DNA of 64,000 nucleotides from Escherichia phage ECML-10. The DNA lies in the sequence record OL631479.1; one strand, given 5' to 3'. Shown one piece after another: positions 3,113-46,080 of this stretch (position 1 is its first letter; each line of letters opens with the position of its first letter). A model generated the notes under the pieces. It saw only the letters and a list, made by a program, of their open reading frames with translations. It had not been told where the DNA came from and made no database searches. The translations under genes were made by a program, and so were the position numbers.

Positions 3113-4030
3113 ATGATGAAGTATTTTAATGCAGACGATCTAGTTGACAAAGGTCTTGTAACCAGTCGATATTATCCAGATCTTGGATTAAAGATCTATA
3201 AATATGCCAGAAAAGTATTCTACAACAATCTGTGGCATTTGTCCCCTCGTTTGCTGGAGTGCCGAGGCATTGTTGTCGGTAATGAAGGAAATGTTGTGGC
3301 ATGGCCCTTCACAAAAGTGTTTAACTTGGGAGAAAATCACACCAACCTGCCTGACAATAAGCTTGTGACGGCGGTAGAGAAAAAGAACGGATTCCTCGGC
3401 GTGGTGTCATCTCATAAAGGTGAACTATTGTTCTCAACAACCGGATCTCTTGATTCCCCATATTGTAACCTCGCAAAGGAAACCATCCGGGAGCAATGTG
3501 GTAATTTAGATCTTATCAAGAAGGTTATGGGCAATGAAAACATGACATTCATGTTTGAAATTTGTCACCCTTCAGATCCGCATATTGTTCAGGAAGATCA
3601 TGGCGCATATTTGATAGGTTGCAGATATAATGATTCTGGAATAATGCTGCCAGAAGCAGCTTTAGATGGGATTGCCAAATACCTTGGCGCAAAACGTCCT
3701 CACACTGTGCGTGAAATTCCGTTCAGCTATGCAAAAGAATTGGCTGCAGAAACAAGAGGTGAAGGGTATATGATTCGTAAGCCTTACTACCCTTATGATC
3801 TGCAGCTGAAGATCAAGTCTCCATACTATCTGGCACGGAAGGCCGTAATGAGGGGTAAAGCTTGGAAGATTTGGGATGATGATATCTTTAAACGTGTTGA
3901 CGAAGAGTTTTACGGCATGGTAAACTTCATTCGTAGCAATTACACAGAAGATGTGTGGAACTGCCTACTGGAGCAGGAACGCAGGGAGATACTCGACCAC
4001 TATTTCCACAACGAGGACTATATGCAATGA
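3113..4030 (+). CDS. RNA ligase, Rnl1 (T4 RnlA) type
   Basis: ECRGI, FNLGEN, KxNG (EKKNGFLG) lysine motif, EGYMIRK and LKIK match T4 Rnl1 motifs; start set to ATG 3113 (SD GAGGAA). Confidence 0.8.
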   Translation: MMKYFNADDLVDKGLVTSRYYPDLGLKIYKYARKVFYNNLWHLSPRLLECRGIVVGNEGNVVAWPFTKVFNLGENHTNLPDNKLVTAVEKKNGFLGVVSSHKGELLFSTTGSLDSPYCNLAKETIREQCGNLDLIKKVMGNENMTFMFEICHPSDPHIVQEDHGAYLIGCRYNDSGIMLPEAALDGIAKYLGAKRPHTVREIPFSYAKELAAETRGEGYMIRKPYYPYDLQLKIKSPYYLARKAVMRGKAWKIWDDDIFKRVDEEFYGMVNFIRSNYTEDVWNCLLEQERREILDHYFHNEDYMQ

Positions 4031-4377
4031 AGAAGTTGATTGTGTGGCTGGATGATTTGAGAGATCCGTCAAATTATGGACTCCCAGACGCTGTTTGGCT
4101 GAAGAATTCCTCCGAGTTTATGGATTTTATTAACGATAAGGGAAAGCTCTACAGACGCGTTTCTGAGTGGCATATGGACAACGACTTAGGAGAAGTATTC
4201 GAAGGATATGATTGCCTATCCATGTTGGAGGAAAAATTTGTATTCGGTAAGCCTCCAGTGGTTGACAACGTGAAGATTTTCGTACATACTTCTAATCCAT
4301 CAGCGGCTCGTAAATTCATGCTTGCAGCTGACTCGTTTAAAAAGTTTGGAATAGAGATTAAACAAAACATCTACTGA
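4027..4377 (+). CDS. hypothetical protein (117 aa)
   Basis: ATGA start/stop overlap with RNA ligase; WLDDLRDP, HMDNDLG and HTSNP conserved-looking motifs, family not recognised. Confidence 0.55.
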   Translation: MKKLIVWLDDLRDPSNYGLPDAVWLKNSSEFMDFINDKGKLYRRVSEWHMDNDLGEVFEGYDCLSMLEEKFVFGKPPVVDNVKIFVHTSNPSAARKFMLAADSFKKFGIEIKQNIY

Positions 4378-41890: not shown

Positions 41891-42051
41891 TCTGGTGCAC
41901 GATTGCATACCTTGGACAGATAATCTCCTTACAGAGCGTTTAAGAGCTTCCTACAAACAACTCTCTTTTTCGAGCGTAGCGAGAACGCACGTCCGTTTTG
42001 ACCCAAATCCCCATACGCTCGGATTTTAACCAAACCCTCGCGGCGTTTCTA

Positions 42052-42080
42052 TTGACACATTACCGCTCCAGTGATAGTAT
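42052..42080 (+). promoter_or_regulatory. sigma70-type promoter (TTGACA-17-TAGTAT)
   Basis: -35 at 42052-42057, -10 at 42075-42080. Confidence 0.45.
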
Positions 42081-42198
42081 CCACACATAGTTTGTAGAAT
42101 ATGGAATACACAATGAGAACATTGTCCGAAGTTTTAGTAGTGATCCTGATGATCATTACGTCCATAGCGGCTGTTGCCGGAATACTCACGGGTGGAAC

Positions 42199-42411
42199 AT
42201 GATCAACACGCATGCACCTGAAGAGACATCCGAAGGAGTGACCATATGTCCATTGTCTGAGCCAGTGAAAGAGGAAAACTTCGATTCTGAAGATTCTCCA
42301 TCTTCGCTCCAGGTAGATCCTGAGGCTGATGACCTAACGTGGGAAGACATCGTAGACATCTGGTTCTCCATTATGCCTGAGCACGAAGAGTTCAGAGGTG
42401 GTAGACTATGA
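42199..42411 (+). CDS. hypothetical acidic protein (70 aa)
   Basis: ORF track; weak SD. Confidence 0.4.
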   Translation: MINTHAPEETSEGVTICPLSEPVKEENFDSEDSPSSLQVDPEADDLTWEDIVDIWFSIMPEHEEFRGGRL

Positions 42412-42532
42412 AGCACCGAGCCCACACAGGTTCCTCATGCTAAAGCATGGCCTGAAGAGGCAAACGTGTATAATTCCAGTGCATTGGAACGTATAAAACC
42501 CTGTTCACACTCTCATTTCCAGAGGAGATTTC

Positions 42533-42748
42533 ATGAAGATAGAAATATTTGGTGGAGCTGACAACACTCGTGGCCTGATTTACCTTGAATTCGATGAAAC
42601 ATACCTGCCAGAGGTGTTAAATATAGACTCTGTTGCTGAGGCTTTGGGAGTAAACCCTAAAGAACTCCACTCTTGTGCTGAGATCGATGGTTGGGAAGAG
42701 ACCATGAACATTGATTTCAGTGAAGTAGAGGATGAACCGCTGGACTGA
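42533..42748 (+). CDS. small acidic protein, MK(V/I)K family member
   Basis: MKIEIFGG start; SD GGAGA. Confidence 0.5.
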   Translation: MKIEIFGGADNTRGLIYLEFDETYLPEVLNIDSVAEALGVNPKELHSCAEIDGWEETMNIDFSEVEDEPLD

Positions 42749-44329
42749 CACACAATTAGCTGCCCGGCTAAAGTGCTGGAAGCACCTATAACACATCTTT
42801 CAACTAAATTTCCCACCACCACAATCACTTACCTCCCACACATGACTGTTTGCTTGTTTAGTGAGCAGTCATGCCTTGACATTCTTGCCTATCCTGATAA
42901 AATTAAGTTCTTCTCTTTTCTTTTACCGAGTAATTCGGGTTTTCTGTTCTCTTCGGTTTGAAGGGGTATGGAGATACACCTGAGTGAACAGGGTGAACAA
43001 CCGAACATTTGGCTATGGCATTAGCATGGCGAAGCGGACGGGTGACGAAAGAGGGGCCGGAGGACACCAGTCACTGCCATATGATATATGGGTGATAACC
43101 TGAAGAGTCTGAATAAGTGTTTAAGTACCAGTCAGAGGAAAAGGTGAATGGTAGCCGAAGGGGGAGGGGGTTTCTTGTATCTTTAATTTGTATATTATGT
43201 ATACATTCGTAAACCAATCTCATCTGAATCTGTTTACCACACAAAGTGGATAGAGACAAATATTACCTATTAAACTTGAATTATTTATAGAAAATACTAC
43301 AACACTACTTAAGTATTTGATTTTACACACAAATCCTGCAGATATTCACCCCCCATATTTAACATACTTGTAACATATTCCATACTCTACCTGACCGATC
43401 AACTCACCCAACTACATCCTCCATATTTCCCCTGTCTGTACTACCCCTGCCCAGCCGGGAGTCCCGTCATATCTGGCTTTCCAGCAAATATCACACCCAC
43501 AAATATCATTGCCTGAAGAGGGTTTCATCCCATAATACATGCCTTACCTGAAGAGCGCTTCATATACCCCGTAAATTTTTTAATTGACACCCTCCCCGCC
43601 GCCGGAGGGGGTTGGCTTTTCCCACACAGACCCGAAGAGCCAGCCAGAAATATCTGAACAGGTCCAGCTATGCCACGATTTTGACCTGACCTACAGGAGT
43701 GCTTCCCTGTCAGGAGCCGGTAGCGACTGGAGTGCTGCCAGGCGGACGAAATGGGAATACTTCTCATTCTTATAATAATTCTCAAATATCGAGGCAGTGA
43801 GGCAAATTAATAGGTGAGGCCGTTCACACAGTGGCACAACATTTGCAACCTATCTTGTGTGGGGGAATGAGAATACCTATCATTGTGAGAATAGTTATCA
43901 TTACGGGCAATTTAACATAATACCCATTATGCGCACCACTGGCGATCCATACAGGGATTGATAACATGAGTTACTGTTTATGCATATAACAATTATATTT
44001 CTTACTATTTGTGTGGGATATAGTTAGCAGCCAATAGATTAGATATTGACCTGTAGACTTCTGACCGTCCAGACGTCTAAACGCCCACACAACAAGGCTT
44101 ATACATACATCGCTGAATGTAAACAGGGCCGCAAAAATGCTACCATACCAGATTGTAAATTTTTCATACAGCACTTGACAAAGAGGAGAAAAACTTGTCT
44201 GACACTTTAGACACAATAGTGACATAATGGTGACACACTGGGCATACTCAACACACTGGATACAATAACAGTTGTTACTATTGCATGCTTCACTGTTCAC
44301 GTATAGATTGTTTACACAGAGATGATAAG

Positions 44330-44620
44330 CCATGCCATTCGTTTGCATGACAATAATTAACTTGTTTACAATCTTTCACTGGCTATGCCAGGTGACCTTT
44401 GGTCACCCCTTCGGGTGTTTCTATGACATAATATAAAAGCAGGGCAACTATTAGAAGATCTATAGTTGCCTTGCTTGTTATGTCACGATTAACTAAATAC
44501 AAGGCAACTATGATCTGATTAATAGTTTGCAGACAAACTATCACGGGGGTGATGGTTACTGCTTTTATATTATGTCGCGACTCCGTCGCGCCATGCCATT
44601 CGTTTGCATAGTTGCCTTAT
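44330..44620. repeat. complex of direct and inverted repeats (GGCAACTAT iterons, 18-bp inverted pair, CCATTCGTTTGCAT direct pair)
   Basis: GGCAACTAT/ATAGTTGCC four times; GACATAATATAAAAGCAG at 44424-44441 with reverse complement at 44561-44578; CCATTCGTTTGCAT at about 44334 and 44596. Confidence 0.55.
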
Positions 44621-45234
44621 TGTTACGAATAAAACAATTGCATTGTTAATGATTTCTTATCTTTCTCTTAGTCATCTAATGATTCCAGTCAGTATAGTAA
44701 TGTACAGTAAACATTAGACGACTAAAGATTTCTCTGTTTATTATAACTCACCGTTATAATTTCGAGCTGTTTACGAAAAATGTTGACATCCTAGCCGATT
44801 TATGTTATGCAGTTTACACGAATAATTATTTTATGCAGGTATTGACTATTCCGTTATTCTATGGTTGGAATAAATACTTAGCAGGCTATAGACTGGTGAG
44901 CGTACGTAAATTCTGAGATCTGGCGGCTATAGTTATACTCGATTTTTCACGTAGAACACGCTTTTGTGGTTATGTAAGTGCATGAATTATAAGAATTTTT
45001 ATTTGTTGACAAGATATTGAAGATATGCATCAGGTTAAAATTTATGCAATAGCGGCATTACGTGCAATTTTGGAAGGAAAAGCGTGTAAAAATGGCCCTG
45101 CTACCACACAATGAAAGGTTATGCAATAGCTATTTTACATGTATATTTGTACAGTGTGTGGGATTGATGGCTCGTCAATTATTCCACTTGCCAGGTAGGG
45201 CCGTTTGTGGTAGGAAAAGAGAAGACAAAAAGAA

Positions 45235-45251
45235 AGGGGCTTTAAGCCCCT
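45235..45251 (-). terminator. rho-independent terminator for minus-strand block
   Basis: AGGGGC-TTTAA-GCCCCT; minus-strand reading is followed by TTTCTTTTT. Confidence 0.55.
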
Positions 45252-45270
45252 GACCGTTCATCTTGTTGTA

Positions 45271-45534
45271 TTATTTGTTGCTCATCCAGTTTTCCCAAGC
45301 TGCCTGATAATCTGCCTCACTACGGCGGATCTCTTCTTGTTCTTCAAGTCGGATCTCTTCTTCCAGGTACCCCAAGATGTCAGCCTTTTTGGTCTGGCGT
45401 AGCATCCAGTCATCTTTTTTGCGGGTAAAGATCTTATAAGCTTTCTCGCAAACCTCTTTTTTGCTACCTTTCTGGACTTCCAGAACACGATAAGCCATAT
45501 ATTGAACTAGTTTGAGCTGGTCAAGACGTTTCAT
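45271..45534 (-). CDS. hypothetical protein (87 aa)
   Basis: SD AAAGAGGAAAAA before ATG 45534. Confidence 0.55.
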   Translation of the reverse strand: MKRLDQLKLVQYMAYRVLEVQKGSKKEVCEKAYKIFTRKKDDWMLRQTKKADILGYLEEEIRLEEQEEIRRSEADYQAAWENWMSNK

Positions 45535-45596
45535 GATGTTTTTCCTCTTTATGTGGTTTTTGTTCAGTGGGCCTTTTGGCCCGTGTCATTATCTTA

Positions 45597-45869
45597 TTAC
45601 TTACGGCGGCAGAATTCAAGCGTTTTTAATTGATAATCTTCCTCAGCCTGGAGTACAACCGCCTCGATCATTTCGTTGGCATTGTTGAAGCCATACCCTT
45701 TAGCGAACTCATCCGCACCACCTTCGTGATCATGTTCTGCGTTCATCGCTTCCACGAAATGGAATTCAAGATTATTGAGATAAGGGCTTGATGTTCCGTC
45801 CTCTTTTTCGATGAGATCCCAAATAGCATTAAAACGTGATTCGACTTCTTGATTAATCCAGCTTGACAT
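45597..45869 (-). CDS. hypothetical acidic protein (90 aa)
   Basis: SD GAGAGGAAAA before ATG 45869. Confidence 0.55.
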   Translation of the reverse strand: MSSWINQEVESRFNAIWDLIEKEDGTSSPYLNNLEFHFVEAMNAEHDHEGGADEFAKGYGFNNANEMIEAVVLQAEEDYQLKTLEFCRRK

Positions 45870-46080
45870 AATGTTTTCCTCTCTTCTGGTTGTTGTGTGG
45901 GCACTTTTGCCCCTTCAAGATAAATGTTACCCCACCACCTGGCAGATGTCAACGGTTTTTATAGTTCTTATATGACAGGCAGGCCCGGTGATTGTCTCCC
46001 CCCGTCGCCAGGTGCCTGCCGTGTAATAAGTATAACAAAAAACAGGACCATTGCAAGCCCTGTTTTCTAGTTAATAAGGA

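What the first reader, a model, noticed from the sequence alone, without database searches (positions are those of the whole stretch)
44330..44620. Symmetric iteron and inverted-repeat complex, a candidate origin or partition-like site
The nonamer GGCAACTAT or its complement ATAGTTGCC occurs four times (about 44443, 44462, 44504, 44610). These are bracketed by an 18-bp inverted pair (GACATAATATAAAAGCAG at 44424-44441 and its reverse complement at 44561-44578) and by a direct pair CCATTCGTTTGCAT (about 44334 and 44596). The nested symmetry resembles replication origins or centromere-like sites and lies in the gene-poor region.
Basis: seen in the sequence. Interest (0 to 1): 0.65.

Follow-up and report, generated by a model that had tools for sequence, protein, structure and literature searches.

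The report
Conserved branched hairpin beside phage terminal repeat
The repeats are real, but they are the paired strands of one strongly conserved, strand-specific folded element of about 150 bases that lies just inside the terminal repeat of an rV5-like E. coli phage, matches no described RNA family, and whose function is still unknown.

Summary
The window is a Vequintavirus (rV5-like myophage). The finding lies in its 2.5-kb ORF-free zone, 226 bp inside a 459-bp direct terminal repeat (window 43741-44199, placed by homology to records that start or end there).

The "iterons" are not independent sites. Box 2 pairs with box 3, box 1 pairs with a degenerate fifth box, and the 18-bp inverted pair closes a 152-nt branched hairpin (z about -9).

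The core is 95% or more identical in 109 of 119 Vequintavirus records. Ten more differ only by a 33-bp loop insertion. FV3 alone has it deleted, exactly between the two 20-bp direct repeats.

The same frame occurs in other Vequintavirinae lineages (A5-4, KPP-1, a PVP-SE1-sized contig and others): a perfect 16-18-bp closing stem, a lineage-specific branched interior and a TCGCGCCA tail. Covariation is strong. Wobble pairs fall almost only on the + strand.

So this is a folded single-stranded element. I lean towards a non-coding RNA, with a single-stranded-DNA replication or end-processing signal as a close rival. A classical iteron origin or a partition site is not supported: no DnaA boxes, no initiator or par gene found nearby. 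Rfam has no match.

The parts
43741..44199 (.). Direct terminal repeat (DTR) of the phage genome, placed by homology. The physical genome ends lie here.
   Evidence: This 459-bp segment is exactly the first and last 459 bp of EdH4. It forms the start and/or end of at least 8 independent records. Korf et al. report a 458-bp terminal redundancy (PMC6563267). CM1 carries it as a tandem duplication.
44176..44198 (+). Conserved DTR-end motif TTGACAAAGAGGAGAAAAACTTGT, followed immediately by the cut position.
   Evidence: Conservation stops right after it. KPP-1's DTR, mapped by sequencing coverage, ends in the homologous TTGACAAGGAGAGAGAATTGTGT.
44199..44328 (+). Hypervariable short-repeat arrays: TGACAYAAT-type units, then GTTTACA/TTCACG-type units. 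The first type repeats the outer half of the stem arm.
   Evidence: Copy number differs between relatives, and identity falls to 42-68% with many gaps. The arrays give overlapping sigma-70-like hits on the + strand.
44329..44348 (+). Direct repeat copy 1, GCCATGCCATTCGTTTGCAT.
   Evidence: It is the left break-point of the FV3 deletion.
44391..44417 (+). Optional GC-rich double hairpin, terminator-like on the + strand (GGTGACCTTTGGTCACC; CACCCCTTCGGGTG followed by TTTCTAT).
   Evidence: It is present in about half of the relatives and absent in the rest. A similar hairpin sits directly upstream of the element in L041.
44425..44442 (+).
   Evidence: Invariant in 25 relatives. It co-varies perfectly with the 3' arm across lineages.
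44443..44473 (+). Box 1 (44443-51), a 10-nt spacer containing GATC, and box 2 (44462-70, extended to 44473). These are the 5' strands of the two inner helices.
44474..44499 (+). Apical loop region. It tolerates substitutions and a 33-bp insertion (rV5, A135, C9).
44500..44531 (+). Box 3 (44503-11, pairs with box 2), a GATC spacer, and the degenerate box ATAGTTTGC (44522-30, pairs with box 1).
   Evidence: (I9).
44536..44557 (+). Side hairpin AACTATCAC-GGGG-GTGATGGTT, followed by the conserved TAC.
   Evidence: The analogous 3' hairpin in other lineages shows compensatory changes.
44559..44576 (+).
44576..44593 (+). Conserved tail CGCGACTCCGTCGCGCCA. It forms a small GC hairpin here. TCGCGCCA is the same in all 11 lineages, although this octamer was part of the search pattern that retrieved nine of them.
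44590..44616 (+). Direct repeat copy 2 (44590-44609), overlapping box 4 (44608-44616). Box 4 with its flank duplicates box 2 and could pair with box 3 instead.
   Evidence: (D3, D9, I2). Invariant in relatives.
44783..45027 (+). Three TTGACW-N12-TATG promoter-like sites (44783, 44842, 45006) pointing into the genome. They are context, not part of the hairpin.
   Evidence: They are the only three in the 64 kb, against 0.36 expected. The same motif lies 48-50 nt after the element in KPP-1- and PVP-SE1-like genomes.

Best explanation
The nonamers, the 18-bp inverted pair and the GATC spacers are the helices of one conserved folded element of about 150 nt. It has an 18-bp perfect closing stem, two stacked inner helices, a tolerant apical loop and a 3' side hairpin, followed by a conserved GC-rich single-stranded tail. 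It is read from the window's + strand.

My commitment is that it acts as a non-coding RNA, made as part of a rightward transcript of the terminal non-coding zone. Promoter-like sites exist in the TGACA arrays, and many relatives have a TATAAT placed so that transcription would start at the first stem base.

In this reading the long perfect closing stem would serve as a processing or stability helix. The invariant tail and junction bases would be what a partner recognises. Box 4 offers an alternative pairing for box 3.

Shown: the fold, its conservation, its covariation and its strand. Inferred: that the folded molecule is RNA rather than single-stranded DNA, and everything about its role.
For: - Fold: z about -9 on either strand, and better on +.
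- Conservation: the core is 95% or more identical in 109 of 119 Vequintavirus records, although the flanks fall to 42-68%.
- Substitutions in 25 relatives fall in the bulge, the loop and the spacers, or are compensated. Observed haplotypes stay more stable than random mutants.
- The same frame occurs in 11 elements from other Vequintavirinae lineages.
- Closing stem: 195 Watson-Crick pairs, no mismatch, 9 different arm sequences.
- KPP-1/PVP-SE1-like alignment: 98.1% of cells paired, 10 pairs with double changes, 0 of 500 shuffles as good, and slid controls at 23-47%.
- Strand: 25 wobble cells on + against 1 C·A cell, and dG(+) below dG(-) in 13 of 13 elements.
- Context: the zone has other promoter-like sites and ultra-conserved non-coding blocks.
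- In two lineage groups a duplicate of an internal helix strand lies 27-32 nt after the stem, +32 in seven of the eight elements that have one.
Against: - No promoter is conserved at a fixed distance, and there is no clear intrinsic terminator after the element.
- A terminator-like hairpin sits 8 nt upstream in this window and in L041.
- There is no wobble in 195 closing-stem pairs, whereas inner helices have about 6% wobble cells. That is odd for an RNA stem and fits a DNA-level constraint.
- The outer stem bases (GACA...TGTC) are the same in all lineages, but the 3' arm end was part of the retrieval pattern and only its pairing partner is independent.
- Copies of the arm motif abut the DTR cut site, which suggests recognition as DNA.
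- I found no transcript data, and Rfam has no match.
Confidence: 0.4

Rival explanations
1. The folded molecule is single-stranded DNA of the + strand, acting in cis in genome-end replication or processing. One version is a single-strand initiation (priming) signal on the strand displaced by rightward synthesis from the terminal zone, like the primosome-assembly sites beside ColE1-type origins or the G4 complementary-strand origin (my own knowledge). The other is a fold-back hairpin used while the terminal repeat is duplicated at the concatemer junction, as proposed for T7.
For: - It lies 226 bp inside the DTR here and 309 bp inside the coverage-mapped DTR of KPP-1.
- PhageTerm classed KPP-1 packaging as T7 type (PMC9862379).
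- rV5 has a T7-like polymerase and primase-helicase (PMC3606486).
- A hairpin-ended DNA containing the terminal repeat is reported for T7 (as cited in PMC4281155).
- The closing stem has no wobble, and every stem ends in GTC, the T7-type primase trinucleotide (primase point from my own knowledge).
- The element looks insulated from transcription: a terminator-like hairpin upstream and an outward-pointing promoter-like site downstream.
- Arrays of the arm motif start exactly at the DTR cut.
- The FV3 deletion between the flanking direct repeats is the classic outcome of a DNA hairpin forming during replication (mechanism from my own knowledge).
- G·T wobble is also tolerated in DNA hairpins.
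Against: - Conserved multi-branch folds with covariation are overwhelmingly RNA.
- No structured single-stranded-DNA site of this kind is known in dsDNA phages with T7-like replisomes.
- A simple fold-back primer would not need a conserved branched interior.
- FV3 shows the element is dispensable, at least in the laboratory, so it cannot be the only packaging or replication signal.
Confidence: 0.33
2. One reading: double-stranded iterons or operators, GGCAACTAT-N10-ATAGTTGCC twice at 60-bp spacing plus a half-site, bound by a phage protein to form a replication origin, a terminase-recognition (pac/cosB-like) site or a centromere.
For: - The boxes and arms are invariant while the 10-bp spacers vary, as with dimer-binding half-sites.
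- The 33-bp insertion roughly keeps helical phase.
- The site lies next to the cut site and is followed by an AT-rich stretch.
- Lineage-specific boxes inside a conserved frame recall lambda cosB or ori iterons co-evolving with their protein (my own knowledge).
Against: - Inner stem positions co-vary perfectly between very close relatives, and the arms lie 61-188 nt apart in different lineages. Only base pairing explains this.
- The KPP-1 'operator' ATGATAA-N4-TTATCAT is replaced by ATGCGA...TCGCAT and ACGATA...TATCGT with compensation, so it is a hairpin.
- The strand-biased wobble has no meaning for duplex DNA.
- DnaA boxes are not enriched.
- No DNA-binding, initiator or Par domain was found in the flanking proteins.
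- The spacing to the cut site is variable.
- The core is deleted in FV3.
Confidence: 0.1
3. A transcription terminator or insulator complex that keeps transcription of the terminal zone away from the genome end.
For: - Terminator-like hits on + at 44404-17 and 44536-57.
- Murica annotates a terminator within this stretch.
- The arms carry A- and T-tracts flanking GCAG/CTGC.
- The rV5 authors expected bidirectional terminators here.
Against: - The closing stem is AT-rich and is not followed by a U-tract.
- The fold is far larger and more elaborate than a terminator, and it keeps conserved unpaired bases and a conserved GC tail.
- The - strand operon already ends at a strong terminator at 45251-45235.
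Confidence: 0.07
4. A selfish palindromic insertion (MITE-like or integrative) flanked by a 20-bp target duplication.
For: - Perfect 20-bp direct repeats flank the unit.
- FV3 looks like an 'empty site'.
- Neighbouring GC hairpin blocks are present or absent between relatives.
Against: - There is one copy per genome in all 119 records and none in 5,426 E. coli genomes.
- It sits at the same place in several genera and shows purifying selection and covariation.
- FV3's single repeat copy carries the variant base (A at position 7) that A135 and JEP1 have in their left copy only, so it reads as a left/right recombinant, that is a deletion.
Confidence: 0.04

Closest known systems
T7 concatemer-junction region (terminal repeat, flanking short-repeat arrays, hairpin intermediate, early promoters A1-A3)
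   Same: - A short direct terminal repeat.
- Arrays of short imperfect repeats immediately beside it.
- An inverted repeat a few hundred bp inside it.
- Three inward-pointing promoter-like sites 0.6-0.8 kb from the repeat.
- A T7-like replisome, and 'T7 type' packaging reported for KPP-1.

Details of the T7 layout are from my own knowledge.
   Different: - No sequence similarity.
- The element here is a large branched, strand-specific fold with covariation.
- The host RNA polymerase is used, not a phage one.
- The genes beside it are transcribed towards the end.
- No hairpin DNA intermediate has been shown.
T5 injection-stop (iss) region in the left terminal repeat
   Same: A large untranslated region at the genome end, packed with direct repeats, inverted repeats and palindromes and conserved among relatives (bioRxiv 10.1101/866236).
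   Different: - It lies outside the terminal repeat, not inside it.
- DnaA boxes are not enriched.
- Two-step DNA transfer is not known for these phages.
Single-strand initiation signals (ColE1 primosome-assembly site, G4 complementary-strand origin)
   Same: Strand-specific, multi-hairpin, about 100-150 nt, positioned just downstream of a priming region, and dispensable but helpful (my own knowledge).
   Different: - No sequence or family link.
- These signals are known for plasmids and ssDNA phages that use host primosome proteins, not for a myophage with its own primase-helicase.
phi29 packaging RNA (pRNA)
   Same: A small RNA encoded close to a genome end. Its 5' and 3' ends pair in a long helix that closes a multi-way junction, and its structure is conserved while its sequence drifts (my own knowledge).
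   Different: - An unrelated phage family and packaging motor.
- No loop-loop complementarity was seen.
- The element is dispensable in FV3, whereas pRNA is essential.
Iteron origins (lambda ori, plasmid iterons)
   Same: Repeated short boxes with dyad symmetry next to an AT-rich stretch.
   Different: - The boxes are helix strands that alternate in orientation.
- There is no initiator gene and there are no DnaA boxes.
- The box sequences are not kept between genera, while the fold is.

Membership tests
Iteron-type replication origin | Three or more direct repeats of one 17-22 bp unit in the same orientation at regular spacing | tested here: not met
   The four 9-mers alternate +,-,+,- at start-to-start spacings of 19, 41 and 105 bp, and they pair with one another in the fold.
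Iteron-type replication origin | DnaA boxes | tested here: not met
   TTWTNCACA with up to 1 mismatch: 5.2 per kb in the non-coding zone against 3.3 per kb window-wide. None lies in the core. The rV5 locus gives 3.7 per kb.
Iteron-type replication origin | Adjacent AT-rich unwinding region | tested here: inconclusive
   44600-44880 is 28-34% GC against about 42% for the genome. That is suggestive but not extreme.
Iteron-type replication origin | Initiator (Rep/O-type) gene next to or around the repeats | tested here: not met
   No ORF overlaps the repeats. Seven flanking small proteins have no Pfam hit above the cut-offs.
Partition centromere (parS/parC) | Linked parA/parB-type genes and a plasmid or prophage lifestyle | tested here: not met
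   The neighbours have no such domains. The family is strictly lytic with linear DTR genomes. Only the flanking genes were scanned, not the whole genome.
T7-type concatemer-junction processing site | Short exact direct terminal repeat | tested here: met
   459 bp, placed by homology to records that carry it at both ends. KPP-1 has 514 bp by coverage and PhageTerm.
T7-type concatemer-junction processing site | Inverted repeat able to fold back, within a few hundred bp of the repeat | tested here: met
   226 bp from the DTR end here and 309 bp in KPP-1.
T7-type concatemer-junction processing site | Hairpin-ended DNA intermediate; requirement for packaging | not testable with these tools
   This needs analysis of replicating DNA. 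The FV3 deletion argues against a strict requirement.
T5 injection-stop region | Located in the untranslated part of the terminal repeat, with an ordered set of 8 DnaA boxes | tested here: not met
   The element is outside the DTR, and DnaA boxes are not enriched.
Structured non-coding RNA (any Rfam family) | Match to a curated covariance model | tested here: not met
   No hit at E of 1 or less in window 42000-46000, nor at E of 0.5 or less in five other loci.
Structured non-coding RNA (generic) | Conserved secondary structure with compensatory changes and strand-specific G·U pairs | tested here: met
Structured non-coding RNA (generic) | Own promoter and terminator; detectable transcript | tested here: inconclusive
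   The promoter-like sites are variable in position, and there is no clear terminator. No transcriptome for this genus is in the paper library.
Intrinsic terminator | GC-rich stem directly followed by a U-tract | tested here: not met
   This holds for the whole element: the closing stem is AT-rich and is followed by GCGACUCC. Two small internal or flanking hairpins do match loosely.
Mobile palindromic element (MITE-like) | Multiple copies, target-site duplication, presence/absence polymorphism | tested here: not met
   Single copy in each of 119 records. Absent from E. coli genomes. Only FV3 lacks it, and that reads as a deletion.

The most novel reading that the evidence does not exclude
A previously undescribed family of structured nucleic-acid elements, shared by several Vequintavirinae lineages and placed just inside the terminal repeat, that takes a direct part in making or replicating the genome ends. 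It could be an RNA cofactor, or a strand-specific DNA hairpin that primes or marks terminal-repeat duplication. Either would be the first such element defined by covariation for a myophage with T7-type ends.
Probability: 0.2. Interest if true: 0.85.

Novelty: new variant of a known kind. Interest (0 to 1): 0.62.

Why it matters
rV5-like phages are among the most often isolated E. coli phages and are widely used in therapy and biocontrol collections. Even so, their replication origin, packaging signal and non-coding RNAs are unknown, and the 2.5-kb "non-coding" box has gone unexplained since the rV5 genome paper.

This work places the physical genome ends inside that box. It also shows that the box holds a deeply conserved, strand-specific folded element that matches no described family. 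That gives a concrete and easily mutated target for three questions: how T7-type ends are made in a large myophage, where replication starts, and whether these phages carry early non-coding RNAs. It also matters for engineering or rebooting these genomes, where the junction region must be kept intact.

Tried and rejected
- Coding explanation: the small ORFs across the core (44383-44544 on -, 44527-44649 on +) are rejected. The common variable sites do not fall on third codon positions, and indels hit the ORF ends (my reading).
- Host origin or mobile element: no match in 5,426 E. coli genomes.
- Wider sampling: the neighbouring 87-aa protein found only 2 IMG/VR loci, and the exact 27-mer found only 2 metagenome contigs.
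- FtsK-like DNA-binding neighbour: the "DNA translocase FtsK" label on the 87-aa protein has no Pfam support.
- DnaA-box origin or T5-like iss: no enrichment.
- Rfam: nothing.
- TGACAYAAT as a window-wide motif: not enriched overall, 36 observed against 44 expected. Only the local cluster stands out.
- UPEC06 ends: the record has identical 462-bp ends, but they are shifted about 200 bp from where the DTR-end motif predicts. I could not tell whether that is the true repeat.
- Literature: searches for a Vequintavirus transcriptome or a description of this region found nothing relevant.
- Ultra-conserved block 42908-43185: its fold is not unusual, z = -1.5.

Full report
**What the window is**

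The region matches about 120 phage records at 90-97% identity, nearly all Vequintavirus (rV5-like E. coli myophages). The + strand genes end at 42748 and the - strand genes end at 45271. About 2.5 kb of ORF-free DNA lies between them. The rV5 genome paper drew this as a "non-coding" box, found no terminators there, and could not locate an origin by skew (PMC3606486).

**The observation**

The four exact GGCAACTAT/ATAGTTGCC copies lie at 44443, 44462, 44503 and 44608. They are the only exact copies in the 64 kb. The inverted pair is 18/18 at 44425-42 and 44559-76. The direct pair is 20/20 at 44329-48 and 44590-609.

**The genome ends are here**

- EdH4's record begins and ends with the same 459 bp. 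Its position 1 corresponds to window 43741 and its last base to window 44199.
- The same segment forms the exact start and/or end of at least eight independent records. Four of them carry it at both ends.
- Korf et al. report a 458-bp terminal redundancy (PMC6563267).
- CM1 carries the segment as a tandem duplication.
- KPP-1, from another genus of the subfamily, has a 514-bp repeat shown by two-fold coverage and PhageTerm ("T7 type"; PMC9862379). It ends in ...TTGACAAGGAGAGAGAATTGTGT, homologous to the window's ...TTGACAAAGAGGAGAAAAACTTGT at 44176-44198.
- Other papers call these phages circularly permuted, so the repeat is well supported but not universally accepted.
- On this placement the finding starts 131 bp, and its hairpin 226 bp, inside the repeat.

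**Anatomy and conservation within the genus**

An alignment of 18 sequences shows:

- the repeat is conserved up to 44198;
- 44199-44330 is hypervariable, with arrays of TGACAYAAT-type and then GTTTACA-type units whose copy number differs;
- a GC hairpin block at 44388-44420 is present or absent;
- 44423-44625 is almost invariant.

The core is 95% or more identical in 109 of 119 records. The ten at 80-90% differ by a 33-bp insertion. Only FV3 lacks the core. It has one copy of the 20-bp repeat, with the left context of copy 1 and the right context of copy 2, so this is a precise deletion between the repeats.

**The repeats form one fold**

Window 44425-44576 folds into one branched hairpin, as RNA or as DNA, with z about -9. 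Its parts are:

- the 18-bp inverted pair, which closes it;
- box 1, which pairs with a degenerate box at 44522-30;
- the two GATC spacers, which pair with each other;
- box 2, which pairs with box 3;
- 44536-57, which is a side hairpin.

In 25 relatives the boxes and arms do not vary. Changes sit in a bulge (44455), the apical loop, the spacers and 44532-34. The 33-bp insertion is in the apical loop. Several multi-site variants (HMD-6, IMGVR_a, EduardKellenberger) keep or improve the pairing. Observed haplotypes are more stable than random mutants with the same number of changes.

**Beyond the genus**

- A5-4 (Septuagintavirus-like) has no GGCAACTAT. At the same place it has GACACTATAAAACGAG, then 71 nt, then CTCGTTTTATAGTGTC, followed by GCTCCCTACGGTCGCGCCA.
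- KPP-1 has a perfect 21-bp pair 309 bp inside its repeat, with the same kind of tail.
- A pattern built from the arm end plus the tail retrieved 13 IMG/VR loci. Eleven are real, from contigs of 84-148 kb, one of them the size of PVP-SE1.
- All have a perfect 16-18-bp closing stem that begins GACAY(A/T)ATA, a branched interior of 100-224 nt that differs between lineages, and a GC...TCGCGCCA tail. The 3' arm end and the TCGCGCCA octamer were fixed or nearly fixed in that search pattern, so their sameness across the retrieved loci is partly built in. The 5' arm, the interior and the covariation were not constrained by the search.
- The closing stems total 195 Watson-Crick pairs, no wobble and no mismatch, across 9 different arm sequences.
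- For seven KPP-1/PVP-SE1-like elements, 98.1% of cells pair and 10 of 61 pairs show double changes. No shuffle of 500 reaches this, and slid controls pair at only 23-47%.
- What looked like a KPP-1 "operator" (ATGATAA-N4-TTATCAT) is a hairpin. It becomes ATGCGA...TCGCAT or ACGATA...TATCGT in relatives.

**Which strand folds**

Wobble pairs fall almost only on the window's + strand: 25 cells, against one C·A cell that would be a wobble on the other strand. The + strand fold is more stable in 13 of 13 elements, by 3-18 kcal/mol. The functional form is therefore a single strand of + polarity.

**RNA or DNA**

For RNA:
- covariation with strand-biased G·U in a multi-branch fold is the usual signature of RNA;
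- the zone carries other promoter-like sites and conserved non-coding blocks;
- many relatives have a TATAAT placed so that transcription would start at the first stem base;
- a copy of an internal helix strand lies 27-32 nt after the stem in two lineage groups, +32 in seven of the eight elements that have one, which would allow an alternative pairing.

For single-stranded DNA:
- the closing stem has no wobble at all;
- its outer bases are the same everywhere and end in GTC (the 3' end was part of the retrieval pattern);
- copies of the arm motif start exactly at the repeat's cut site;
- upstream sequences are heterogeneous and include terminator-like hairpins;
- the position beside the repeat is kept in both genera where the repeat is mapped;
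- the family has a T7-like replisome, and T7 has a reported hairpin intermediate.

I give RNA 0.40 and single-stranded DNA 0.33.

A duplex iteron origin, a terminase site or a centromere gets about 0.10, for these reasons:
- the arms lie 61-188 nt apart in different lineages, yet always match perfectly;
- the box sequences are replaced between genera;
- DnaA boxes are not enriched;
- the neighbouring proteins show no relevant domains;
- FV3 lacks the core.

Rfam has no match, E. coli genomes have none, and the paper library holds no description of the region or transcriptome for the genus.

**Verdict**

This is a real, strongly selected and apparently undescribed structured element beside the terminal repeat. 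The fold, its conservation and its strand are shown. Its chemistry (RNA or DNA) and its role are inferred.

Noticed in passing
window 43741-44199: By homology this 459-bp segment is the phage's direct terminal repeat, so the 'convergent' gene-free zone of the circular map actually contains the physical genome ends. Several papers still describe these phages as circularly permuted.
   Followed up: yes
window 42815-43165: A block of about 350 bp that is essentially 100% identical in 15 relatives. It follows a near-consensus sigma-70 promoter at 42876-42903 (TTGACA-16-TAAAAT with TG). There is no Rfam hit and the fold is unremarkable (z = -1.5). It may be a non-coding RNA or a tiny-protein gene.
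   Followed up: partly
window 44783-44804, 44842-44863, 45006-45027 (+): Three TTGACW-N12-TATG sites, the only ones in the 64 kb (0.36 expected). All point into the genome, against the - strand genes. The same motif lies 48-50 nt after the element in KPP-1- and PVP-SE1-like genomes, and inside KPP-1's terminal repeat. The 12-bp spacing is too short for an ordinary sigma-70 promoter and recalls activator-dependent middle promoters.
   Followed up: partly
window 44199-44330 and 43665-43740: Both flanks of the terminal repeat are indel hot spots. On the right are arrays of 10-16-bp units with variable copy number. On the left, GC-rich hairpin modules are present or absent. This resembles the short-repeat arrays that flank the T7 terminal repeat.
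   Followed up: partly
window 45234-45251 versus L001 5752-6296: This phage lacks the 139-aa gene (rV5 ORF164) that most relatives carry between the terminator and the 87-aa gene. This accounts for the roughly 545-bp length difference.
   Followed up: partly
L012 (FV3, NC_019517) about 1880-2010: FV3 alone among 119 records has the core deleted exactly between the 20-bp direct repeats. This could be a true deletion stimulated by the palindrome or a cloning or assembly artefact.
   Followed up: partly
L002 (CM1, MK962749) 3278-4322: The CM1 record holds a tandem duplication of window 43741-44263 (523 bp). It is probably the terminal repeat assembled twice, but the unit is 64 bp longer than in other records.
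   Followed up: no
GenBank MG0656xx records: About 18 'Campylobacter phage' records (UNVERIFIED) are 90-97% identical to E. coli Vequintavirus across this region, so their host labels look doubtful.
   Followed up: no
window 45271-45534 (-): Several records annotate the 87-aa product as 'DNA translocase FtsK'. Pfam gives no such hit, so the name appears to be propagated without support.
   Followed up: yes
L029/L030 (UPEC06, MW250786): The record has identical 462-bp ends. They lie about 200 bp away from where the conserved repeat-end motif (TTGACAAAG...) would place the boundary, and this is unexplained.
   Followed up: partly
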